This document shows, one piece after another, positions 51,724-64,000 of a stretch of 64,000 nt of DNA (its first letter is position 1; each line of letters starts with the position of its first letter). Source of the stretch: Minisyncoccota bacterium (GTDB taxonomy: Bacteria; Patescibacteriota; Minisyncoccia; UBA6257; 2-01-FULL-56-20). The stretch lies in the NCBI GenBank assembly GCA_022843285.1, contig JALHNY010000001.1, positions 15,128 to 79,127 on the forward strand, in the 5' to 3' direction. Both the position numbers and the translations under genes were made by a program. A model generated the notes under the pieces. It was not told where the DNA came from and did not search any database. It saw only the letters and a list, made by a program, of their open reading frames with translations.

Positions 51724-52634
51724 TTCTTTGCTTTGAAGAGCGCGATGAGCGCGATGACGGTGGCGAGCACCATGCCGCCGAGCACCCAGAACCCCTGCGG
51801 GTGCCCCATGAACGGGATGCCCTCGAGGCGGACGGCGAAGAGCGTCGCGAAGAGCGTGAGCGGGTACGTGATGAGGCTGACCACGGTGAGGACGCGGATG
51901 ACCTGGCCGCTCCGCATGCTCATGAGCTGGTTGTTGGTCTGCTCGAAGTCCGCGACGGCGGTGCGGTAGTCATCGATCTGCTGGCTGATGCGCAGGAAGT
52001 CGCCGTGGATGTCCTCGATGTACGGCGCCGTGCCCTCGCCGAAGAAGCTCGCACCCACGCCCTGCAGCGAGGTGAGCACCTGCCCCATGGGGTTGAAGAT
52101 GATCTTGTACTCGGAGATGTCCCGCTTGAGGTACGCGATGCGCACGAGCAGGTCCTGGTTGCTGCCCGTGAAGAGGTCCGAGCCGACCGCCTCCACCTTC
52201 TCCTGGATGTGGCGCAGCTGGCGCTGGTTGTACGCGAGGACGTGCGAGAGGATGCCGTACGTGATCTCGAGCCCGGGCGGCACGGGGAGCTGGCGCTCCT
52301 TGCCGGCGAGCCCCTGGTTCGCCGCGAACTCGAGCGCGTGCAGGTGCTCGTAGTGGACGGTGATGACGACGTCGCGGCGGATGATGAAGTCTATCTCCGC
52401 GCGGCGCGACACGAAGTTCTTGGCGTCGTATATGGGGAACTGCACCGCGAGGAACAGGTACGAGCCGAAGTTCTCCACGTGGGCGCGCGGGGAGGGGGAG
52501 GTGAGTTCCTTGAGGATCACCGGGTGTAGGTCCAGCTTCTGGCTGAGCTGCTTGAGCGCCGGGTGGTCCACGGTCGCGCCCTCCTCCAGCTGGATGTCGA
52601 TCCAGGGTTGCAGGTCTTTTGAACGCGACGTCAT
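51714..52634 (-). CDS. corA: CorA-family Mg2+/Co2+ transporter (variant GMN-region)
   Basis: Cytoplasmic domain plus two C-terminal TM helices; GIPFMGHP sits where the YGMNF motif would be. Confidence 0.75.
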   Translation of the reverse strand: MTSRSKDLQPWIDIQLEEGATVDHPALKQLSQKLDLHPVILKELTSPSPRAHVENFGSYLFLAVQFPIYDAKNFVSRRAEIDFIIRRDVVITVHYEHLHALEFAANQGLAGKERQLPVPPGLEITYGILSHVLAYNQRQLRHIQEKVEAVGSDLFTGSNQDLLVRIAYLKRDISEYKIIFNPMGQVLTSLQGVGASFFGEGTAPYIEDIHGDFLRISQQIDDYRTAVADFEQTNNQLMSMRSGQVIRVLTVVSLITYPLTLFATLFAVRLEGIPFMGHPQGFWVLGGMVLATVIALIALFKAKKWI

Positions 52635-52691
52635 GGGAGCAATTGTACCAAAAATTTCTGCCACTCTGTTCGCGCTACTCACAAATTGTGG

Positions 52692-52720
52692 TTGTCAATT
52701 TGTGTACACCCTGGTATAAT
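52692..52720 (+). promoter_or_regulatory. near-consensus promoter (TTGTCA, 17-nt spacer, TGgTATAAT) with no downstream plus-strand ORF
   Basis: The reverse complement also offers a TG-extended TACAAT for corA on the minus strand about 45 nt away. Confidence 0.5.
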
Positions 52721-52819
52721 AGTTCCACAGGTAAGAATCCTAGACTCCTGTGGACCTGAAATGCAGAAAGGCTCTACTGCGGGATCCCAGTAGGCCAGCG
52801 CGAGCTGGAATCCAACGGA

Positions 52820-53284
52820 TTACGATGAGGGAATGTCGCCCCTCCAGGTCCACAGAAGTCTGTGATTCTCTAGATACCCTGTTTTTCTGACACGGAATGC
52901 GGTGACAACAGAAAAGTAAATTTCGCCTGAGGTCGTCGCTTGCTTTTCGAGAATGACCACATACTGGGCTCCCTGAATTTGCTTAACAAAAATGAAGTCA
53001 CCTCTTTTGCCGTCTTTATTTTCGTAAATTGCGTTTGGCAATCTCACAATGAGGTGCGCACATTTCAAGATCACCTCAAATTCCTGCGCGGTTCGCTTGT
53101 CATACAGATGCTTGATTACTCGTGAGCTGAGGTAAACCTTCGCCGCTCCATCTGCAGTTTTTAGAACCGCGCCTACCTTTTTAGTGAGGCGCGCAATGAG
53201 CTGTTCTGTTACCGCAACCAGGGCGCCGGGGAGAGTACCCTTGACGTTACGAATAAAAAGGTTTTCAGCTGCTTTTTTGAACAT
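52820..53284 (-). CDS. hypothetical protein in a low-GC (~47%) patch
   Basis: 154-aa ORF whose composition is clearly foreign relative to the flanks; no family recognised. Confidence 0.5.
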   Translation of the reverse strand: MFKKAAENLFIRNVKGTLPGALVAVTEQLIARLTKKVGAVLKTADGAAKVYLSSRVIKHLYDKRTAQEFEVILKCAHLIVRLPNAIYENKDGKRGDFIFVKQIQGAQYVVILEKQATTSGEIYFSVVTAFRVRKTGYLENHRLLWTWRGDIPSS

Positions 53285-53318
53285 TGACAGTGTGTCATTC
53301 TAGGCGTCGGACCACGCA

Positions 53319-53345
53319 TTAGCAATCTTGACCCAAGACTGCTAA
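53319..53345 (+). promoter_or_regulatory. CIRCE operator (HrcA binding site) TTAGCAaTC-N9-GAcTGCTAA
   Basis: An inverted repeat with 9-nt spacer matching TTAGCACTC-N9-GAGTGCTAA at 16 of 18 positions. It lies immediately upstream of hrcA, with -10 TAAAAT at about 53352. Confidence 0.75.
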
Positions 53346-53366
53346 CGGCGATAAAATGCCCGGGCA

Positions 53367-54053
53367 ATGCGAGATCGTTCAGCTGAGATTCTCGAGGCGA
53401 CCGTCCGGGAGTTCATCTCCTCGGGCGTTCCGGTCAGCTCGTCGCACCTGTACGAGCGCTACGACTTCGGAATCAAGCCGGCGACCATCCGCATTGAGCT
53501 GACGGACCTCACGGACCAGGGCTTCCTCGAACAGCCGCACCACGCGGCGGGCCGGGTGCCCAGCGACACCGGCTACGAGTTCTACGCGGCGCGCGCCCTC
53601 TCGGGGGCGCACCCGGCGAAGGCCGGCCACGGCATCACCGCAGCCATCCGCGAGAGCGCGTGGGACCACCTCGCCGACCTCATGGCCGAGCAGATGGGCG
53701 CGGTGGGCATCGTCGCGGACCTCACGGATGGGTACGCGTTCACGCGCGGCCTCCCGCAGCTGGTCGAGCGCCTGGACTGGGAGAGCCGCGACGAGCTCGC
53801 CGGCATCCTGCGCGACATCGAGGCCATCGACGAGCGCATCGGATCGTTCCGCTCCCGCCTCGGCGTGGACCCGCGCCTGTTCATCGGCAAGTCCAGCCCG
53901 TTCGGGCGCACGAGCGCCCTCGCCGCGGTTGCCGCGCAGTACTCGCTGCGCGGGCACCCGATAGCGATCATCGCGGTCGGGCCCAAGCGCATGGACTACG
54001 ACCGCGCCGCGCAGCTGTTCGCCACCGTCGACCACCTCATCAACAAAGACTGA
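53367..54053 (+). CDS. hrcA: heat-inducible transcription repressor HrcA (short, 228 aa)
   Basis: N-terminal winged helix ILEATVREFISSGVPVSSSHL..ATIRIELTDLTDQGFLEQPHHAAGRVP. Confidence 0.85.
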   Translation: MRDRSAEILEATVREFISSGVPVSSSHLYERYDFGIKPATIRIELTDLTDQGFLEQPHHAAGRVPSDTGYEFYAARALSGAHPAKAGHGITAAIRESAWDHLADLMAEQMGAVGIVADLTDGYAFTRGLPQLVERLDWESRDELAGILRDIEAIDERIGSFRSRLGVDPRLFIGKSSPFGRTSALAAVAAQYSLRGHPIAIIAVGPKRMDYDRAAQLFATVDHLINKD

Positions 54054-57417: not shown

Positions 57418-58476
57418 ATGGCTAAGGACTACTACTCAGTACTGGGCGTCTCCCGCACCGCCTCCCAAGACGACATCAAAAAGGCGTACCGGAAGGCCGC
57501 GCACCAGCACCACCCCGACAAGGAGGGCGGCGACGAGGCGCGCTTCAAGGAGATCAACGAGGCGTACCAGGTGCTCGGCAACGCCGAGAAGCGCGCCCGC
57601 TACGACCGCACGGGTTCCGCCGAGGACATTCCCGGGTACGGGGGGTTCGGCGGCTTCGGCGCGGAGGGCTTCAACGTGAACATCGAGGACCTGGGAGACC
57701 TGTTCTCGTCTGTCTTCTCCGGCGGCTTCGGGGGAACCGCGCGCCGCGAGGAGCGCGGGCGCGATCTGCACGTCGAGGTGATGGTCACGCTCGAGGACGC
57801 GTTCCGCGGCGGCACGCACCAGTTCACGATTCCGGCGCTCGTGCAATGCGGGAAGTGCAAGGGTGAGGGTACCGCCGATGGGTCCAAGCTGCACACCTGC
57901 GCGAAGTGCGCGGGCAAGGGGCAGGTGACGCAGACCCGCCGCGTGCTTTTTGGGCAGTTCCAGCAGGTGGTCTCGTGCGACGCGTGCGACGGTACGGGCA
58001 AGGTTCCGGAGAAGCCCTGCCCGGACTGCTCCGGCGCCGGGCGCAAGAAGGGGGAGCGGCACGTCTCCGTGCAGTTCGAGCCTGGCATCGGGGACGGCCA
58101 GGTGCTCGCCGTCGCCGGCATGGGGGACGCGGGGCGCCGCGGGCAGCCGAGTGGGAACCTCGGCGTGCGCATCCGCGTGGCGCGGCACGCGGCGTTCTCA
58201 CGCGACGGGGACGACCTCATCACGCGCGTGAAGGTGAGTCCGCTCCAGCTGCTGCGCCATGACCCGATTCCCGTGCCCGTGATTGATGGGGCGAAGGTGA
58301 ACGTGGATCTGGGTAGTGGCGTGGATCTCGCCGAGCGGTACCGCGTGAAGGGACAGGGCATGCCGCGGTACCGGAGCCGTGGCAGGGGAGACCTGTACGT
58401 GGAGTTCCACGTGGTGACCGGGAAGAAGCCCAACAAAAAGGAGATGGAAGGACTGGGGGAGTTGTTCGAGTCCTAG
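57418..58476 (+). CDS. dnaJ: molecular chaperone DnaJ
   Basis: J-domain with HPD, G/F region, four CxxCxGxG zinc repeats, and a C-terminal domain. Confidence 0.9.
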
Positions 58477-58513
58477 TCCCGCAGCAGCCACTTTTATGGT
58501 CTAAAATTGAATT

Positions 58514-59410
58514 ATGGAGCGAATCAAAACACCCACGTTTGAGTTGGCAGTTCTCATGCGTGGTGATGAGAAGGCAGAGCAATTAGCCCTGCTCCTTCCA
58601 GGGCGCCTTGATACGAAAGACTACGTGAGCTTTACAAGCCTTGCAGATGAGCTTGCCGAACGGGGATGGCTTGCTGTGGCTTTTGATCCGCCAGGCACGT
58701 GGGAGAGCGGTGGTGAGATAAGCGATTTCACGACAACTAACTACCTGCAGGCCGTACGCGAACTTGTAGAGTACTTTGGCAATCGACCCACTGTGTTGAT
58801 CGGTCACAGCAGGGGAGGCGCCGTTGCCATGTTGCTCGGGCAATCTTTGCCTGCGGTAATTGGCATCGCGATGCTCATGCCAAGCTTCAATGATCCGACT
58901 CCGCCAGATGAGAATGCGGTACAGGCTGGCTTCAAGGTCTCACGCAGAGATTTGCCGCCTGGCTCGCAGAAGACGGACGCGCAGAAAGAATTCGCTTTGC
59001 CTGTGAGCTATTGGGAAGATGGCAAGAAGTATCATCCAGTAGAAGTTTTATTAGAAACAATGAAGCCTAAGCTGATTGTTTACGCCACTGAGGATGAATT
59101 CATGCAGGTCGAGGAAGCCAAGGAGGTATGCGACAAGCTACCTGAGCCAAAGAGGATTTATGAGGTAGAGGCGGTACATGACTATCGCTACCACCCCGCA
59201 GCAATCAAAGAAGTGAATGGGATCATCAAGGAATTTCTCACAAGCCTAGTTAGGAAATGCCAATGTGAGGAGCCGAATTGTGGAAAGTGTTTATCCATCA
59301 ATTGTCAAGATCATGATTGCCTCGTTCATACAAGAGAGGCGAAGGCGCGCTGGCGAAGAAACTGGGAGATGGCTAGCCGGAAGGAGTTTCCACACCCTAA
59401 GAATTACTAG
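58514..59410 (+). CDS. alpha/beta-fold hydrolase with Cys-rich C-terminal tail (first gene of low-GC island)
   Basis: Nucleophile elbow GHSRGG; C-terminal CQCEEPNCGKCLSINCQDHDC; GC about 50%. Confidence 0.7.
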   Translation: MERIKTPTFELAVLMRGDEKAEQLALLLPGRLDTKDYVSFTSLADELAERGWLAVAFDPPGTWESGGEISDFTTTNYLQAVRELVEYFGNRPTVLIGHSRGGAVAMLLGQSLPAVIGIAMLMPSFNDPTPPDENAVQAGFKVSRRDLPPGSQKTDAQKEFALPVSYWEDGKKYHPVEVLLETMKPKLIVYATEDEFMQVEEAKEVCDKLPEPKRIYEVEAVHDYRYHPAAIKEVNGIIKEFLTSLVRKCQCEEPNCGKCLSINCQDHDCLVHTREAKARWRRNWEMASRKEFPHPKNY

Positions 59411-59706
59411 AAATAGGTTCCAAGTTCGTCTAGCTTGGCCAGCTCGGAAGGTCTGATGAATCAGACCATGACACGTAAGGGAAAATAAGGGTTTTTAAGC
59501 GACTGTTTCGAGACCACGACCCTCGACCGATTTGAGACTCGAACCCGACCATGACGGGTGAGTATCTCAGAGGGTCAGCAGTCATAAACACCCCGTCTAA
59601 TGACCTAGATGGGTGAGATGTTTGAAGTCTGGTTGAAATACCTTGACTTTAGTTTTATATCGTCGCCTGACCTTTCGTTCGAGAGTATACTTAAGGTTAG
59701 TGCTTC

Positions 59707-62700
59707 ATGAAGAGAGCACAATCTATGGACGTTCTAAAACCTTCCATTCAAATAAAACCTCTAAGGTTCTCCGAGAACCCAGCTGATTACGCTCTCTATC
59801 GGGCGGCTTTGGAGTGGGATTTGATCGATCCTATTGTTATCGAGAGTCCGGAAGATCTGAAATCCACGCGGTCATGGGCCGACAAGGTTCAACCTTATCA
59901 GCATCAAGTATCAAACCTCATAAGTTTTTGTCGCCGCTTGCCTGTAACGCTTCTCGCAGATGATGTTGGTCTAGGCAAGACCATTAGTGCAGGATTGGTT
60001 GCCAGTGAATTAATTTCTCGGGGTCGTCTGTCAAAAATCCTCATAGTTGCGCCAAAGATACTCGGTCCTCAATGGCAGGAAGAGTTGGAAACGAAATTCG
60101 GAATACCTTCAATCATTGCGACTGGAAAGGGTCTACTGGATGCAGAACCGCCTGGTGATATAGGTGCCGTCATAACTACCTATAATTCCGCGCGAATGTA
60201 TCTGACTCGACTCCGAGATGCGGGGTTCGACATGTTGATACTCGACGAAGCCCACAAGCTCAGAAACTTGTATGGTACTGATACTGCGCCCCAAGTAGCT
60301 TTGCGTTTCAAAGAGATTTTGGCCGATCGAGTTTTTAAGTACGTTCTTCTTCTTACTGCTACCCCGATTCAAAATAGACTTTGGGATTTATATTCGCTTG
60401 TTGAACTTCTTACGGTTGCACGTGGCCACGAGAATCCGTTCGGCAATCCAGGCACGTTTTCAAGAAAGTTTATCGCCGACAATCGGACAGATGCGCGCAA
60501 GCTCAATACGGAAGCGCAAGAAGAGTTTCGTTCGATTATTTATGGCTACATGTCTCGAGTGCGACGTGGAGACGCAGATCTGCATTTCCCAGGAAGAGAA
60601 GTTCAACTTCACTCAGTAAATCCTTCCCCGGGTGAATTGGAGTTGATTAAGGTTGTTGCCACGTATATTGGAGATTTGGATAGGCTTACTCAGATAAATA
60701 TCCTGAAGACTTTGGTCAGTAGCCCTGAGGCACTCACTATCATGCTTAAAGGGATGGCCGAACGGGGAACGGTAAAGAAGGAATTTGCCGTTGCAGTAAA
60801 GGAGGTTGCCAAGACGATCTCGCTCACATCAAAGTTGCAGGGCCTGGAAACGTTAGTCGACAAACTAAGGGCAGAAAAACCGACCCAGTGGCGCATGGTC
60901 GTTTTTACGACACGGATTGAGACACAAACTTCAATTCAGAATTTCTTGGAAGAACGAGGCATTAGTTGTGGACTCATAAACGGCACGACCGGCTCCACGA
61001 ATAAAGATACTCTTGAGAAGTTCCGGAAAGATGACCCAGAAATCAACGTAATGATATCTACGGAAGCCGGAGCAGAAGGCGTCAACTTGCAGGTTGCAAA
61101 TGTCTTGGTCAACTACGACTTGCCTTGGAATCCGATGATTGTTGAGCAACGTATTGGTCGCGTACAACGTCTCGGCTCGGTTCATGAAAAAGTGTGCATC
61201 TTCAATATCGTCCTCAAGGATACATTTGAGGACTATATCGTTGGTCGCTTGATGGAGAAATTGCAAATGGCTTCGCATGCTATCGGCGATATCGAGTCGT
61301 TGCTTGAGGCCTCGGGACTTGGAGAAGGTGAAGATAGTTCGGAAGTATTTGAGCAAAAGGTACTCAAGCTTGTTCTCGCCTCATTGCAGGGCAAAGACAT
61401 TGGGGAAGCAGCCAAAAGAGCGGAGCGGAGCATTGAGAATGCAAAAATCCAACTGGAGAAGGAAGAGGAAAATATCAATTCCATGCTCGGGAGCATGGAT
61501 GAATCCTATGACACAGGTCCCCAAAGTCCGATACTTCCAAAGGTTATCCGATCTATGGATGTTAAGGATTTCGTATTGTCTGGACTCAAGAGTTTGGGTG
61601 CAACACTGACACAAAAAACGCCTGAATTTTACCTCTCGGAACTCAACAAAAAGCAGGAGCTAATACGCTTCGACAATAATCTCAGCATTCCCGTCGCAGA
61701 TGGTCCTTTACTTAGAAACGTTCTGTATGCGCCGGGCAGCCCAGCTTTTGAGAGATTGGTAAGTAAGGTAACGAACGTTGGTCTGCACCGTGTTGAGGAC
61801 GCTGATGCTAATCCGAAAGACAAGCTTGAGGCAATAGTGAAAGAATGGGTGGATAAAACAGGAGCGTCTTATCTTGGCTCAAAGATAACAGGTGTTCGAC
61901 GCACGTTCAGCGGCGCGGCACTAGTAAGGGTACGAGTGACTGTGGCTCATGATAGTTATGAACGCCTCGTTGAAATTCCCTGCTCCCACTCGGAGCATAT
62001 AGGGGAATCAACAAAACTGGCCTTGGATCCTCTCGATAACACGATACTTAATGAGCCATCGCTTATCGGCATATCTCCCGAGTTGCTGATCGACAGAGCT
62101 CTCCTTGATGCTGGCGTGTCGGAATTCTGTCGCTTTTACAGAGAGCGATTGTCTCAGGAGTTGAAGAATGCTGGGTTGGATCCTGCAAAAAAGAAGAAGA
62201 TAGAAGACGACTTTACTCCTCGTCTTGAGTGCGCGTTGGTTGGTCTGGAGGGATTCGTCCGGCGTCAGTTTGAAACGAATGCATCTTACCGATTTGGCGA
62301 GAGCGATGAAAATAGCAGTGCTCTAGAAGTATTGCCTTCTCTAGGGGAGACAGTTTCTGCTCCTAAGTTGGCAAAATGTGAGGAGACTGGGAAATCGGTG
62401 CCTGTTGATTGCCTCGATCGCTGCGATATTAGTCGTAAGAGAGTTCTGCGTTATCTGCTTGTGAAATCGGATACCAGCGACCGGAAAGCGTTGCAGAAAT
62501 ACATAGTCAAGTGCGAATACACTGGAAAGCATGTACTGAATGATGAAGTGGAGAAATCCGATGTTACTGGCCATATGGTTCTGGCCATGATGCTAAAAGA
62601 GTCTGCTCTTAGTGGCAAGAAGGGCGAACCCGATGCGTTTGGAAAATGCGATTTCACAGGCGCGGAACTCCTGTTGAGTGAGCTGGGCGTTAGCCAAGTA

Positions 62701-63444
62701 TCAGGGAAAACGTATCGTCTGGACGAAGCGGGTACTTCTTCGGTGTCAGGGAAGACTGGACATCGCACAGAGTTTGTTAAGTGCGTGGAGACAAATTCTC
62801 TCATCTTGCCGGAAGAATCGGAAATATGCGAAGTAACTGGAAAGGTAGTTACTAAGGGACTGCTGGAAGAGTGTGAAATATCTGGCAAGAAGGTATTGCC
62901 TTCAAAGCTGGAAACAAGTTCTCTGAGCGGAAAGAAGGCGCTCAAAAAGTACTTCGTTTCCAGTAGCATCTCTGACGCAAGACTACTGAAGGAAGAAGCA
63001 ATCAAATCTGCAGCTGGAAAGTTCTGCTTGCCTGTCGAGGCAAAGGAATGCGCATGGAGTCACAGACTTTGCCATATCGATGATTTGAAGTTTTGTTCTC
63101 TCACCAATCTAGCCTTTTACTTTCAGTTTATAAAAGAGAAAGATGCCCAATCTCGGCTAGAGGTTTTGTCTGATCTTTTGGATGAAGTCCAGAGGGGTCT
63201 TGAGATCGAGGTGACTGAGAATATGCGCACTAACCTTGCATTCGCTATAAAGCATAAGACCTGTGAAGTTGAATCAAACAAATCTAATCCGGACAAGAAA
63301 ATCATCGCTATCTGCTTCTCTGGCAAGTCGTTCCTCGGATTGAGGACTAGACATTTTGGCGCGCTTTACTCGCTTGATGCGGAGACTGTCGTAGGCAAGA
63401 TTGCCGAAGGCAGCAGAAACACTAACGGCTGGACGCCGAACTAA
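59707..63444 (+). CDS. SNF2-family (SWI2/SNF2) helicase/ATPase with ~600-aa C-terminal extension containing ~10 tandem 15-aa repeats
   Basis: Motif I LADDVGLGKT, motif II DMLILDEAHKLRN, motif III LLLTATPIQNRL, motif VI QRIGRVQRLGS. GC about 46%. Confidence 0.85.
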   Translation: MKRAQSMDVLKPSIQIKPLRFSENPADYALYRAALEWDLIDPIVIESPEDLKSTRSWADKVQPYQHQVSNLISFCRRLPVTLLADDVGLGKTISAGLVASELISRGRLSKILIVAPKILGPQWQEELETKFGIPSIIATGKGLLDAEPPGDIGAVITTYNSARMYLTRLRDAGFDMLILDEAHKLRNLYGTDTAPQVALRFKEILADRVFKYVLLLTATPIQNRLWDLYSLVELLTVARGHENPFGNPGTFSRKFIADNRTDARKLNTEAQEEFRSIIYGYMSRVRRGDADLHFPGREVQLHSVNPSPGELELIKVVATYIGDLDRLTQINILKTLVSSPEALTIMLKGMAERGTVKKEFAVAVKEVAKTISLTSKLQGLETLVDKLRAEKPTQWRMVVFTTRIETQTSIQNFLEERGISCGLINGTTGSTNKDTLEKFRKDDPEINVMISTEAGAEGVNLQVANVLVNYDLPWNPMIVEQRIGRVQRLGSVHEKVCIFNIVLKDTFEDYIVGRLMEKLQMASHAIGDIESLLEASGLGEGEDSSEVFEQKVLKLVLASLQGKDIGEAAKRAERSIENAKIQLEKEEENINSMLGSMDESYDTGPQSPILPKVIRSMDVKDFVLSGLKSLGATLTQKTPEFYLSELNKKQELIRFDNNLSIPVADGPLLRNVLYAPGSPAFERLVSKVTNVGLHRVEDADANPKDKLEAIVKEWVDKTGASYLGSKITGVRRTFSGAALVRVRVTVAHDSYERLVEIPCSHSEHIGESTKLALDPLDNTILNEPSLIGISPELLIDRALLDAGVSEFCRFYRERLSQELKNAGLDPAKKKKIEDDFTPRLECALVGLEGFVRRQFETNASYRFGESDENSSALEVLPSLGETVSAPKLAKCEETGKSVPVDCLDRCDISRKRVLRYLLVKSDTSDRKALQKYIVKCEYTGKHVLNDEVEKSDVTGHMVLAMMLKESALSGKKGEPDAFGKCDFTGAELLLSELGVSQVSGKTYRLDEAGTSSVSGKTGHRTEFVKCVETNSLILPEESEICEVTGKVVTKGLLEECEISGKKVLPSKLETSSLSGKKALKKYFVSSSISDARLLKEEAIKSAAGKFCLPVEAKECAWSHRLCHIDDLKFCSLTNLAFYFQFIKEKDAQSRLEVLSDLLDEVQRGLEIEVTENMRTNLAFAIKHKTCEVESNKSNPDKKIIAICFSGKSFLGLRTRHFGALYSLDAETVVGKIAEGSRNTNGWTPN
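62371..63090 (+). repeat. in-frame tandem 45-nt (15-aa) repeat region inside the SNF2 gene; consensus [KS][CS][DE].[TS]GK.VL
   Basis: Units are KCEETGKSV, KCEYTGKHV, SDVTGHMV, ALSGKKG, KCDFTGAEL, QVSGKTY, SVSGKTG, KCVETNSLI, ICEVTGKVV, CEISGKKV, SLSGKKA, at about 45-nt spacing. Confidence 0.6.
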
Positions 63445-63446
63445 AT

Positions 63447-64000
63447 ATGACTCCAATATCCAAGACAACCTTTCTGTCTTTCCTCGAATGCCCTCGAAAT
63501 GTGTGGCTACAGCTTCATCGTCCTGATGAGGTTGGGAAGTGTGTGCCTTCAGACTTCGAACTCCATCTGATGGAACAGGGCAATGAAGTAGAAGCCGAGG
63601 CTCGAAAGCTTTTCCCCGGTGCCGTACAGATAACTTCTACTGGAGACGACGCGATTGAAGATACGAGACGTCTGATGGCGGCAAAAAGTCCCACGATCTT
63701 CCAAGCCACCTTTCTCGTAGATGGGTTTATCGCAAAAAACGACATGCTTTCGTACGACGTGGAGCATGATTGCTGGAATCTCTACGAAGTAAAGGGTACC
63801 AACTCTGTAAAGGAGGACGGTGCAGGCAATCGTGACCATATAGACGATCTTGCTTTCCAGCTAAGAGTACTCCGGCGTGATGGCGTGAAAGTCGGCAAGT
63901 GTTTTCTCGTACACCTGAATAAAGAGTACATACGCAACGGCGATCTTGACCTCAATGCGTTGTTTGAAATGGAGGATGTAACCGAGAAAATAGAGGCACG
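63447..64000 (+). CDS. DUF2779-like PD-(D/E)xK family nuclease, 3'-truncated by window end
   Basis: N-terminal SK(T)TFLSFLECPRNVWLQLHRPDE matches the DUF2779 signature (S-K-S-x-F..G..C-P-[KR]..W), with a downstream YEVKG (E-x-K) motif. The ATG lies 3 nt after the SNF2 stop. Confidence 0.55.
   Translation, partial: MTPISKTTFLSFLECPRNVWLQLHRPDEVGKCVPSDFELHLMEQGNEVEAEARKLFPGAVQITSTGDDAIEDTRRLMAAKSPTIFQATFLVDGFIAKNDMLSYDVEHDCWNLYEVKGTNSVKEDGAGNRDHIDDLAFQLRVLRRDGVKVGKCFLVHLNKEYIRNGDLDLNALFEMEDVTEKIEA

What the first reader, a model, noticed from the sequence alone, without database searches (positions are those of the whole stretch)
62371..63090. About ten tandem 15-residue repeats ([K/S][C/S][D/E]x[T/S]GKxVL) in the C-terminal extension of the SNF2 helicase
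Repeats appear in frame about every 45 nt: KCEETGKSV, KCEYTGKHV, SDVTGHMV, ALSGKKG, KCDFTGAEL, QVSGKTY, SVSGKTG, KCVETNSLI, ICEVTGKVV, CEISGKKV, SLSGKKA. The periodicity suggests a solenoid or beta-roll-like array fused to a chromatin-remodeller-type motor. I do not recognise this repeat as a described family. It is too short and too divergent for MORN or hexapeptide repeats. It could be a target-recognition or partner-binding module.
Basis: seen in the sequence. Interest (0 to 1): 0.6.

Follow-up and report, generated by a model that had tools for sequence, protein, structure and literature searches.

The report
Length-quantised hairpin-repeat stalk on SNF2 helicase
The tail of this bacterial SNF2 DNA motor holds 17 copies of an undescribed 15-residue beta-hairpin repeat, predicted to form an elongated array that relatives lengthen from 13 to about 73 copies, almost always four copies at a time.

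Summary
ORF 59707-63444 (+, 1245 aa) has an intact SNF2 motor. Residues 891-1100 hold 14 units of exactly 15 residues with no indel, followed by 3 degenerate units. The consensus is [C/S]-[D/E]-h-[S/T]-G-K-x-V-L-P-x-E-L-x-K (offset-15 self-score z=11.4).

AlphaFold2 (pLDDT 92-93) predicts each unit as a 6-residue loop, a strand, a 3-10 turn and a strand. I read this as tandem zinc-knuckle-like hairpins that lack the zinc ligands. There was no beta-helix among the structural matches, and nothing matches in Pfam, NCBIfam or the PDB.

The family has 487 representative clusters across many phyla. Arrays run from 13 to about 73 units and account for almost all of the length variation between proteins. 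55 of 67 length differences are multiples of 4 units (60 aa).

Long-array relatives sit in defence islands (DISARM drmABC, BREX-like genes, type III R-M plus GmrSD). In the window, and in about 17% of short-array loci, the neighbouring gene is a Cas4-like/DUF2779 nuclease.

My best reading is a rigid, length-tunable stalk that keeps its angular register and holds a small C-terminal beta domain away from a defence-related DNA translocase. The sequence and family results are shown. The structure is predicted, and the function is inferred.

The parts
59707..63444 (+). Complete gene for the SNF2 helicase with the repeat-bearing C-terminal extension (1245 aa)
   Evidence: ORF list. The exact protein is on record from a 164.8-kb NCBI contig. 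188 close homologs and 487 representative clusters match the repeat profile.
59941..61176 (+). SNF2 ATPase motor (N-lobe residues 79-315, C-lobe residues 383-490) with motifs GLGKT, DEAH, TATP and QRIGRxQR intact
   Evidence: Pfam SNF2-rel_dom 1.5e-24 and Helicase_C 5.5e-20. Motifs read from the translation. The closest curated families, DrmD, DpdE and RapA, all score below their cut-offs; BrxHI and DrmD are the best PADLOC models.
61474..62373 (+). Post-motor alpha/beta region (residues 590-889) with long beta-hairpins and helices; weakly RapA-like (which part of the model aligned to RapA was not reported)
   Evidence: AF2 model mf24e6428d962, pLDDT 92.1. Foldseek PDB best hits are E. coli RapA 8spg and 6bog (E 6.6e-3, prob 0.98, ~297 columns). 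No Pfam match.
62377..63006 (+). Fourteen canonical 15-residue hairpin units (residues 891-1100) in perfect register
   Evidence: unit PSSM scores 10-32 bits, against a 99.9th-percentile null of 3.4. DSSP of both AF2 models is strictly periodic.
63007..63138 (+). Three degenerate terminal units forming the C-terminal cap of the array (residues 1101-1144), with C1107, C1115, H1123 and C1130 nearly invariant in the close subfamily
   Evidence: nearly invariant C518, C526, H534, C541 in alignment numbering. The periodic DSSP pattern continues through them. These residues are not kept in distant long-array members such as P0121.
63139..63441 (+). C-terminal domain (~100 aa): two helices and a five-strand beta-meander containing a WD40-blade-like 'SPDxxxLA' motif
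   Evidence: AF2 DSSP. Alignment A3. The profile hits WD40 proteins only by summing many weak single-blade matches, each non-significant on its own.
63447..64000 (+). Downstream gene, cut by the window end: Cas4-like PD-(D/E)XK plus DUF2779 nuclease. It starts 2 nt after the helicase stop codon and is a probable partner.
   Evidence: NCBIfam TM0106 RecB-like nuclease, 1.4e-4 for the 184-aa fragment. Full-length orthologs of 503-521 aa carry PF11074 DUF2779 in the near-identical loci L085 and L086. Homologs in other loci match DUF2779 at 1e-32 to 1e-39, and one also passes Pfam's Cas_Cas4 cut-off. It is adjacent to the helicase in 14/80 genome loci and 3/12 family-member metagenome loci.
58514..59410 (+). 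Upstream alpha/beta-hydrolase gene at the start of the low-GC island; conserved only in near-identical contigs, so probably not part of the system
   Evidence: Pfam Abhydrolase_1 2.1e-14. Present in L086 and L087. Not among the conserved neighbour clusters. GC drops from 0.68 to 0.47 here.

Best explanation
The repeat is a previously undescribed 15-residue beta-hairpin unit. Each unit is a zinc-knuckle-like turn (C/S-x-x-S/T-G-K) between two 3-residue strands, linked to the next unit by a 3-10 turn, and it lacks the metal ligands. Seventeen units in tandem are predicted to form an elongated array, which I infer to be a rigid stalk that separates the SNF2 DNA-translocating motor (with its RapA-like post-motor region) from a small C-terminal beta domain. 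Stalk length is evolvable, from 13 to about 73 units, but it changes almost only in blocks of four units. I infer that four hairpins make one structural turn, so only 4n changes keep the C-terminal domain in the same angular register with the motor. The protein is most likely a defence-island DNA translocase. In this reading the stalk presents the C-terminal domain to a partner at a set distance from the DNA-bound motor, or uses it for self-association. The partner would be the adjacent Cas4/DUF2779 nuclease here, and DISARM or BREX-like components in relatives. Status of the steps: the periodicity, family, length variation, quantisation and gene neighbours are shown. The secondary structure of the array is predicted. 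Its three-dimensional shape is judged only from weak fold matches. Rigidity, four units per turn, partner docking and defence activity are inferred.
For: Periodicity: 14 units in perfect register, z=11.4.

Structure: two independent AF2 runs (pLDDT 92.1 and 93.1) give the same loop6-strand3-turn3-strand3 pattern for every unit. The nearest PDB folds are tandem LIM, CHY and RBR zinc-finger hairpin rods, with no beta-helix. BFVD hits include phage 'LIM domain' and 'metallothionein' proteins and fibre shafts.

Spacer-like behaviour: the information-rich positions are 1, 4, 5, 6, 8, 9, 12 and 13 (turn and core), while 7, 11, 14 and 15 vary. Net charge per unit averages -0.01. Unit spacing is exactly 15 in 4849 of about 5400 cases. 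In 77 complete proteins the array spans 13-72 units, protein length tracks array span (r=0.95), and the non-array part is 1014 +/- 84 aa.

Quantisation: among close homologs the region is 261 aa in 98/115, otherwise +120 (x3), +60 or -60. With anchor HMMs, 55/67 non-zero differences lie within 0.35 unit of a multiple of 4, where 17.5% is expected. The events are independent: P0100 lacks units 5-8, P0083 lacks units 10-13, P0062 has four extra copies of one unit type, and P0002/P0069 duplicated units 5-12. Long arrays have super-repeats at about 60, 120 and 180 aa.

Selection: the same unit in different proteins is 53% identical, against 23% between units of one protein.

Context: drmA-drmB-drmC-88 aa-P0122. 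P0121 lies between an MmeI-like methyltransferase plus RES protein and GmrSD-drmABC. P0125 follows PglZ, a BrxD-like ATPase and an Lhr-like helicase. P0132 lies between a type III R-M system and GmrSD. The nuclease is adjacent on the same strand, with gaps of -12 to 50 bp in most cases (up to 480 bp in three loci), in the window and in 14/80 genome loci. The gene sits in a low-GC island, and integrases or recombinases lie near several homologs.
Against: No experimental or structural data exist for any family member. The AF2 coordinates could not be read, so rise, twist and straightness were not measured. 'Rod' and 'four units per turn' therefore rest on secondary structure, weak fold matches (no PDB hit below E=0.2) and the length statistics. 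A pTM of 0.64-0.66 is compatible with a rod, but also with a superhelix whose turns touch. The quantisation statistic is not corrected for phylogeny, and 12 of 67 differences are not multiples of 4. Most short-array loci (about 83%) have no conserved neighbour, so the partner idea does not generalise. None of the short-array loci carries drmABC. Many homolog genes are split or truncated. Each unit is individually conserved among orthologs, including surface residues (units 6, 8 and 9: RAEP, YRxD, GHxxEF). That is more than a pure spacer would need.
Confidence: 0.45

Rival explanations
1. The array is a modular binding surface. Each unit, or each small group of units, contacts a periodic ligand such as the DNA backbone, RNA or a filamentous protein, in the manner of TALE or PUF repeats, and copy number sets the footprint.
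For: Orthologous units are well conserved (53% identity) and carry unit-specific motifs: SGKRAEP, YRxD and GHxxEF are invariant or nearly so. K/R is frequent at positions 6, 7 and 15. These unit types recur periodically in long arrays.
Against: Net charge per unit is about 0, ranging from -0.7 to +0.7. The most conserved positions are turn and core residues. Copy number varies more than five-fold between relatives with the same motor and end domains. No similarity to known nucleic-acid-binding repeats was found.
Confidence: 0.2
2. The array is a cysteine-based metal-binding domain (zinc-ribbon, LIM or metallothionein-like), and metal binding holds it together or senses redox state.
For: Cys occupies position 1 in 37-88% of units. 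The turn C-x-x-S/T-G mimics the C-x-x-C-G zinc knuckle. The nearest folds are LIM, CHY and RBR zinc fingers and a phage 'metallothionein'. P0181-type relatives carry genuine CxxC/CxxH modules before the array and a CxxC unit at its end. C1107, C1115, H1123 and C1130 are nearly invariant in the close subfamily.
Against: Each unit has at most one Cys. It exchanges freely with Ser, and whole arrays can be Ser-rich (P0129) or nearly all Cys (P0132). The second knuckle position is always S/T and never C or H. The end-cap Cys and His are replaced in distant members such as P0121. The deletions in P0100 and P0083 remove different subsets of the conserved Cys.
Confidence: 0.1
3. The chains assemble into a multimeric fibre. 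One form would be a triple beta-spiral like the adenovirus fibre shaft, which also has a 15-residue repeat. Another would be oligomerisation through the single WD40-like blade at the C-terminus.
For: The period is 15 residues with a strand-turn-strand unit. Adenovirus fibre proteins appear among BFVD hits at E 1e-4 to 1e-2. The C-terminal domain carries one WD40-blade-like motif.
Against: The fibre hits have probability 0.14-0.35 and TM about 0.1. The hydrophobic pattern (positions 3, 8, 9, 13) differs from my recollection of the shaft consensus. The monomer is predicted with pLDDT 93. No multimer prediction could be run. The individual WD40 matches are non-significant.
Confidence: 0.07
4. The array is a pentapeptide-repeat-like beta-helix (three pentapeptides per 15-residue coil) that acts as a DNA mimic.
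For: The array profile hits the pentapeptide protein MfpA in the PDB sequence search (E 1.9e-4). Positions 1-5, [C/S][D/E][VIL][S/T]G, resemble the A(D/N)LSG consensus. A pentapeptide-repeat protein is encoded directly after P0125.
Against: The domain-level E-value of the MfpA match is only 0.024, and the alignment is gapped. Pfam Pentapeptide models do not match the protein. By my recollection, known pentapeptide helices use 20 residues per coil. The AF2 models draw no beta-helix matches in the PDB or BFVD. The array is not acidic.
Confidence: 0.03
5. Array length is functionally neutral. Expansions are a by-product of unequal recombination between repeat blocks, and the 4n pattern only reflects which blocks happen to be homologous.
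For: Large recent block duplications exist, with 8- and 12-unit super-repeats. Many family genes look degraded.
Against: The sequence 'flavour' period inside arrays is 3 units (45 aa). That would favour 3n steps, yet 4, 8, 16 and 20-unit steps dominate. P0062 has exactly four extra copies of a single unit type. Units are under purifying selection.
Confidence: 0.1

Closest known systems
DrmD (SNF2-like helicase of class 1 DISARM) and BrxHI (BREX-associated SNF2-like helicase)
   Same: The best-scoring curated families for the motor: NCBIfam DrmD 3.6e-60, PADLOC BrxHI 1.4e-61 and DrmD 4.9e-56. A long-array relative (P0122) sits where a DrmD would, directly after drmA-drmB-drmC. Another (P0125) lies at the end of a BREX-like locus.
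   Different: Scores are far below the equivalog cut-offs (204 vs 610 bits). The matches cover only the helicase core, up to profile position ~705-720 of 1021-1040, so the curated DrmD models do not contain the array. The window locus has no drmABC, no methyltransferase and no BREX genes; its neighbour is a Cas4/DUF2779 nuclease.
RapA/HepA (RNA-polymerase-associated bacterial SNF2 ATPase)
   Same: A bacterial SNF2 motor followed by extra C-terminal domains. RapA gives the only PDB fold match with high probability for residues 590-1245 (8spg/6bog, prob 0.98). The NCBIfam RapA model hits the motor at 5.8e-37.
   Different: Below the family cut-off (127 vs 576 bits). There is no room for RapA's N-terminal domains (as I recall them): only ~60 aa precede the motor. 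RapA has no hairpin array. TM-score is only 0.18.
Zinc-ribbon / LIM-type tandem zinc-finger hairpins (rubredoxin-knuckle C-x-x-C-G turns)
   Same: Beta-hairpins closed by a knuckle turn of the same spacing, C-x-x-[S/T]-G. Tandem LIM domains are the top PDB matches, though not significant. Some relatives carry genuine CxxC modules next to the array.
   Different: The second ligand is always S/T and the first is C or S, so there is no four-ligand site. The unit is 15 residues and repeats up to ~73 times in strict register. No significant sequence or fold match (E >= 0.2).
Adenovirus fibre shaft (triple beta-spiral, 15-residue pseudo-repeat)
   Same: The same repeat length, a strand-turn-strand unit, a variable number of repeats that sets the length of a stalk carrying a terminal domain, and weak BFVD matches.
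   Different: The shaft is an obligate trimer with a different hydrophobic pattern (from my recollection). The matches have low probability and TM about 0.1. Oligomeric state here is unknown.
Pentapeptide repeat proteins (MfpA, Qnr)
   Same: The first five residues of the unit resemble A(D/N)LSG. A weak profile match to MfpA.
   Different: The period is 15, not 5 or 20. The predicted fold is hairpins rather than a quadrilateral beta-helix. No Pfam match. The array is not acidic.

Membership tests
SNF2 (Swi2/Snf2) ATPases | SNF2-type N-lobe and helicase C-lobe with motifs I (GxGKT), II (DEAH), III (TATP) and VI (QRxGRxxR) | tested here: met
   Pfam SNF2-rel_dom 87 bits (cut-off 24.9) and Helicase_C 72 bits (cut-off 23.5). 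GLGKT, DEAH, TATP and QRIGRVQR are visible in the translation.
DISARM DrmD | Score above the NCBIfam equivalog cut-off over the full-length model | tested here: not met
   NF038317 204 bits vs cut-off 610; NF038318 184 vs 950. Only the helicase core aligns.
DISARM DrmD | Encoded with drmA (helicase), drmB (DUF1998/MZB), drmC (PLD) and a methyltransferase | tested here: not met
   Window neighbours are an alpha/beta-hydrolase and a DUF2779 nuclease. No DrmA, DrmB or DrmC homolog was found in the short-array loci searched. The feature is met only for the long-array relatives P0122 and P0121.
RapA | Score above the NCBIfam equivalog cut-off, plus N-terminal RNA-polymerase-binding domains | tested here: not met
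   NF003426 127 bits vs cut-off 576. Only ~60 residues precede the motor. The fold match is weak (E 6.6e-3, TM 0.18).
Pentapeptide repeat family (PF00805 and relatives) | Tandem A(D/N)LXX pentapeptides recognised by the Pfam models; right-handed quadrilateral beta-helix | tested here: not met
   No Pfam hit at E<=1 for the window protein or for arrays longer than 1000 aa. The PDB profile match to MfpA has a domain E-value of 0.024. No beta-helix among fold matches.
Zinc ribbon / LIM zinc fingers | Four Cys/His ligands per metal site, supplied by two knuckles (CxxC...CxxC) | tested here: not met
   One C/S and one S/T per unit. Cys fraction at position 1 is 0.37-0.88 across arrays. Metal content itself was not measurable.
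Hexapeptide (LbH), MORN and RTX beta-roll repeats | Recognition by the corresponding Pfam repeat models; periods of 6 (18 per coil), ~23 and 9 (18 per turn) residues respectively | tested here: not met
   No Pfam match. The period is exactly 15 in 4849 spacings.
Triple beta-spiral fibre shafts | Homotrimeric intertwined chains | not testable with these tools
   Only monomer prediction was available. BFVD fibre matches have probability <=0.35.
Anti-phage defence system (generic) | Enrichment next to known defence genes; experimental protection | tested here: inconclusive
   All four informative long-array loci contain DISARM, BREX, R-M or GmrSD genes. No PADLOC model covers the C-terminal extension, and the neighbouring nuclease matches only Cas4 models. 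No statistical enrichment test or experiment was possible.

The most novel reading that the evidence does not exclude
The unit is a new repeat fold: a zinc-free knuckle hairpin that stacks with about four units per turn. It forms a phase-locked molecular ruler up to tens of nanometres long, whose length evolves in whole turns. The ruler sets the distance and orientation between a DNA-translocating SNF2 motor and a C-terminal docking domain. Together with a Cas4/DUF2779 nuclease it makes a previously unrecognised two-gene anti-mobile-element system, and a DrmD-like accessory of DISARM or BREX in its long forms.
Probability: 0.25. Interest if true: 0.8.

Novelty: new variant of a known kind. Interest (0 to 1): 0.65.

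Why it matters
SNF2 motors are common in bacterial defence systems (DISARM, BREX, Zorya, Dpd), yet how the motor connects to the rest of each system is poorly understood. This family attaches to the motor a stalk of strictly 15-residue hairpins. Its length differs more than five-fold between relatives, but it changes almost only in four-unit steps. Such a pattern points to selection on geometry (distance and angular phase) rather than on sequence. Engineered variants with +/-1 to 4 units would test this directly. The repeat is also absent from Pfam, NCBIfam and the PDB, so it is a candidate new repeat family, and possibly a designable zinc-free rod module. The recurrent pairing with a Cas4/DUF2779 nuclease suggests an uncharacterised defence cassette.

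Tried and rejected
- **DNA-level repeat:** Tandem Repeats Finder on 62000-63444 gave 0 rows. The repeat is old and exists only at protein level.
- **Family libraries:** Pfam, NCBIfam and PADLOC match only the helicase core.
- **PDB by sequence:** the array profile gave only a weak MfpA match. The C-terminal domain gave only summed single-blade WD40 matches.
- **Phage and plasmid collections:** tblastn found no match.
- **Literature:** searches for 'SNF2' with '15-residue repeat', for zinc-ribbon repeats, DUF2779 and DrmD, plus the YprA/ARMADA preprint, found no description of this repeat.
- **Exact look-up of the window protein's contig** failed. A 90%-identity cluster mate supplied the full nuclease gene instead.
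- **Zinc sites:** I considered three sites (C891/902/906/936, C981/1026/1041/1056, C1107/1115/H1123/C1130). I rejected them as a general feature, because P0121 replaces several of these residues and P0100/P0083 delete different subsets.
- **Alpha/beta-hydrolase as a system component:** rejected, because it is conserved only in near-identical contigs.
- **Coevolution analysis for contacts between unit n and n+4:** not attempted. It would be confounded by the periodic order of unit types.

Full report
**1. Observation**

The finding lies in ORF 59707..63444 (+ strand, 1245 aa). There are 14 units with no insertion or deletion (residues 891-1100, nt 62377-63006). Three degenerate units follow, one of them a residue short (to residue 1144, nt 63138).

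- Column content is C/S at position 1 (7/7), S/T at position 4 (8/6), G at 5 (10/14), K at 6 (9/14) and L at 9 (9/14).
- The consensus is [C/S]-[D/E]-h-[S/T]-G-K-x-V-L-P-x-E-L-x-K.
- The BLOSUM62 self-score at offset 15 is 151, against -195 +/- 30 for shuffles (z=11.4; 0 of 2000 shuffles reach it). The next best offsets are 45, 30, 75 and 60.
- A sliding offset-15 score is positive only between residues ~870 and ~1100.
- Tandem Repeats Finder sees nothing in the DNA, so this is an old, diverged protein repeat.

The true count is 17 units rather than about ten.

**2. The protein**

Residues 79-315 and 383-490 form an SNF2 motor (Pfam SNF2-rel_dom 1.5e-24, Helicase_C 5.5e-20). The motifs GLGKT, DEAH, TATP and QRIGRVQR are intact. 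Nothing in Pfam, NCBIfam or PADLOC matches residues 590-1245. The closest curated families match the motor only and fall far below their cut-offs:

| Family | Score (bits) | Cut-off (bits) |
|---|---|---|
| DrmD | 204 | 610 |
| DpdE | 172 | 500 |
| RapA | 127 | 576 |

PADLOC's best models are BrxHI (1.4e-61) and DrmD (4.9e-56).

**3. Predicted structure**

An AlphaFold2 model of residues 590-1245, built on 121 sequences, has mean pLDDT 92.1. A second model of residues 876-1140, built on a separate trimmed alignment, has pLDDT 93.1.

In both models every unit has the same DSSP pattern: a six-residue loop (C-x-x-S/T-G-K), a three-residue strand, a three-residue 3-10 turn and another three-residue strand. 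I read this as a chain of beta-hairpins. Each is closed by a turn with the spacing of a zinc knuckle (C-x-x-C-G), but the second ligand is replaced by S/T and the first is C or S.

Fold searches gave the following.

- Foldseek against the PDB finds no significant match for the array. The top, non-significant hits are rods of tandem zinc-finger hairpins (LMO2, PINCH, Isl1 and LMO4 LIM domains, the CHY finger, PZP, RBR). No beta-helix appears.
- Against predicted viral structures there are 23 hits below 1e-3. They are uncharacterised phage proteins, a phage 'LIM domain' protein, a 'metallothionein' just above that threshold (3.7e-3) and, with low probability, adenovirus fibre shafts, which also have a 15-residue repeat.
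- For the larger model the only high-probability PDB hit is E. coli RapA (E 6.6e-3, prob 0.98, TM 0.18). Which region aligned was not reported; I presume it is the post-motor region.
- A profile of the array hits only the pentapeptide protein MfpA in PDB sequences, weakly (E 1.9e-4; domain E 0.024).
- The last ~100 residues are two helices plus a five-strand meander with a WD40-blade-like 'SPDxxxLA' motif. The individual matches are not significant.

**4. The family and its length variation**

Residues 590-1245 have 188 homologs at 40-60% identity, nearly all without names. A profile of the array finds 487 representative clusters (240 below 1e-30) among 1.84 billion proteins. Many are 1350-2098 aa long, with arrays beginning near residue 870-900. 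The three long relatives scanned carry the SNF2 motor and still match no Pfam repeat model.

- A 15-position PSSM places successive units exactly 15 residues apart in 4849 cases. Spacings of 29-31 (one unit missed) occur about 410 times, 14 occurs 52 times and 16 occurs 6 times.
- In 77 complete proteins the array spans 13 to 72 detected units. Protein length tracks array span (r=0.95), and the rest of the protein is 1014 +/- 84 aa.
- Position 1 can be nearly all Cys (P0132) or Ser-rich (P0129).
- Net charge per unit averages -0.01.
- The same unit in different proteins is 53% identical, against 23% between units of one protein. Some units carry their own invariant motifs: SGKRAEP, YRxD, GHxxEF.

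**5. Quantised length**

Among close homologs the array region is 261 aa in 98 of 115. The variants are +120 aa (three proteins), +60 aa and -60 aa.

I then measured the distance between HMM anchors placed before and after the array in 196 proteins. 129 have the same distance as the window. The non-zero differences, in units, are: -4 (x2), +4 (x7), +8 (x21), +12 (x3), +16 (x3), +20 (x8), +24, +28 (x2), +32 (x4), +40 (x3), +44 (x4) and +56, plus a few off-values. In total 55 of 67 lie within 0.35 unit of a multiple of four, where 17.5% would be expected (binomial p about 1e-30, not corrected for phylogeny).

The events are independent:

- P0100 lacks units 5-8.
- P0083 lacks units 10-13.
- P0062 has exactly four extra copies of one unit type.
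- P0002, P0037 and P0069 duplicated units 5-12.

Long arrays show super-repeats at about 60, 120 and 180 aa, together with a 45-aa (three-unit) 'flavour' period. A three-unit flavour would favour 3n recombination steps. I therefore take the dominance of 4n steps, and of 12-unit blocks (the least common multiple of 3 and 4), as evidence for a structural period of four units. This is an inference.

**6. Genomic context**

The gene lies in a low-GC island (0.47, against 0.68 for the flanking DNA) that begins just after dnaJ. Two bases after its stop codon begins a gene cut by the window end. Its product matches the TM0106 RecB-like nuclease family. In near-identical contigs it is a 503-521 aa DUF2779 protein. 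Homologs in other loci combine a Cas4-like PD-(D/E)XK region with DUF2779.

Among 80 genome loci from many phyla (candidate phyla radiation bacteria, Nitrospirota, Acidobacteriota, Alpha- and Gammaproteobacteria, Planctomycetota, Cyanobacteria and others), this nuclease is the only recurrent neighbour. It is adjacent in 14 of them, mostly on the same strand and on either side, and in most cases the gap is -12 to 50 bp. It is also adjacent in 3 of the 12 family-member loci from metagenomes. Serine recombinases, integrases and ParB-methyltransferases occur nearby in some loci.

Long-array relatives sit among known defence genes:

- drmA-drmB-drmC-88 aa-P0122.
- MmeI-like methyltransferase-RES-P0121-GmrSD-drmA-drmB-drmC.
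- PglZ-BrxD-like ATPase-Lhr-like helicase-P0125-pentapeptide-repeat protein.
- Type III R-M ... P0132 ... GmrSD in a complete chromosome.

No member was found in the phage or plasmid collections. Many short-array gene calls are split or truncated.

**7. How it most likely works (confidence 0.45)**

The motor is a dsDNA translocase; this follows from what is known of SNF2 enzymes. The array is a rigid stalk of knuckle-type hairpins with no metal. Its conserved positions are fold determinants, it is electrically neutral, and its copy number is free to change, but only in whole four-unit blocks. That pattern fits a helical rod with about four units per turn, in which 4n changes keep the C-terminal domain in angular register with the motor.

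In this reading the C-terminal domain is the working end. It would dock a partner, or self-associate, at a set distance from the DNA-bound motor. The partner would be the adjacent nuclease here, and DISARM or BREX-like proteins elsewhere.

The periodicity, family, length statistics and neighbours are shown. The secondary structure is predicted. Rigidity, twist, docking and defence activity are inferred.

**8. Rivals**

- **Modular binding surface (0.2).** Unit-specific conservation supports it. Neutrality and copy-number freedom argue against it.
- **Neutral expansion (0.1).** The 4n rule and purifying selection argue against it.
- **Cys-based metal domain (0.1).** There is only one C/S per unit, S/T is always at the second knuckle position, and the end-cap Cys/His are lost in distant members.
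- **Multimeric fibre of the triple beta-spiral kind (0.07).** The matches are weak and the oligomeric state could not be tested.
- **Pentapeptide-like beta-helix (0.03).** There is no Pfam match, the period is wrong and no beta-helix appears among fold matches.

**9. Comparison and novelty**

The motor is an ordinary member of the bacterial SNF2 group nearest DrmD, BrxHI and RapA, but it fails each family's membership test. The repeat uses a familiar element, the knuckle hairpin. As a 15-residue, zinc-free, strictly registered array of 13 to about 73 units, it is not in Pfam, NCBIfam or the PDB, and I found no description in the searchable literature.

I rate it a new variant of a known kind: a defence-island SNF2 helicase with a new stalk module. 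The four-unit quantisation is the most surprising and most testable feature.

The main caveats are these:

- There are no coordinates and no experimental data.
- The statistics are not corrected for phylogeny.
- Most short-array loci, although not the window's, lack a conserved partner.

Noticed in passing
window 58400-64000: GC content falls from ~0.68 to ~0.47 just after dnaJ (57418-58476). The alpha/beta-hydrolase, SNF2 and nuclease genes form a low-GC island in a high-GC contig. No tRNA lies in 45-64 kb. The same three genes recur in near-identical metagenome contigs (L085-L087). The closest other homolog (60% identity) is in a Saccharibacteria MAG (L005), which points to recent horizontal transfer, or possibly a chimeric assembly.
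   Followed up: partly
window 58514-59410: The alpha/beta-hydrolase (298 aa) ends in a Cys/His-rich tail (CQCEEPNCGKCLSINCQDHDCLVH) that no Pfam model covers. It may be a small zinc-binding appendage.
   Followed up: no
window 52500-53500: A second local GC dip (0.51, against ~0.66-0.72 around it) was seen in the composition profile and was not examined.
   Followed up: no
L173:13598-15010: Directly after the long-array homolog P0125, with stop and start overlapping, lies a 470-aa pentapeptide-repeat protein (PF00805 1.1e-34). The locus begins with PglZ_C, a BrxD-like ATPase and an Lhr-like helicase.
   Followed up: partly
window 63139-63441 (residues 1145-1245): The C-terminal domain carries a single WD40-blade-like motif ('SPDxxxLA' followed by a beta-meander). 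One blade cannot close a propeller alone, so oligomerisation is conceivable. The individual HMM matches are not significant.
   Followed up: partly
P0181 (1827 aa), residues ~880-1010 and ~1715-1760: One subfamily has about 130 aa of genuine CxxC/CxxH cysteine-rich modules between the post-motor region and the array, and a CxxC-containing last unit. This hints that the 15-residue unit descends from a zinc-knuckle hairpin.
   Followed up: partly
L002:6437-10163, L003:7438-11120, L004:7395-11192, L001:8001-11366: Many 17-unit homologs are called as split or 5'-truncated genes. One example is a SNF2 N-terminal fragment followed by a separate 720-aa product. This is either gene decay or frameshift errors in the assemblies.
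   Followed up: no
L001:11391-15957 (Bradyrhizobium sp. STM 3562): A PDDEXK_1 gene and an RNase_H_2 gene lie convergent to the helicase, with two transposase genes between them. They look like one TM0106/DUF2779-type nuclease gene broken by insertion sequences.
   Followed up: no
L089:7698-7964 and L088:14337-14570: Small ORFs of 88 and 77 aa with no Pfam match lie directly next to the long-array genes P0122 and P0121. I did not compare them with each other.
   Followed up: no
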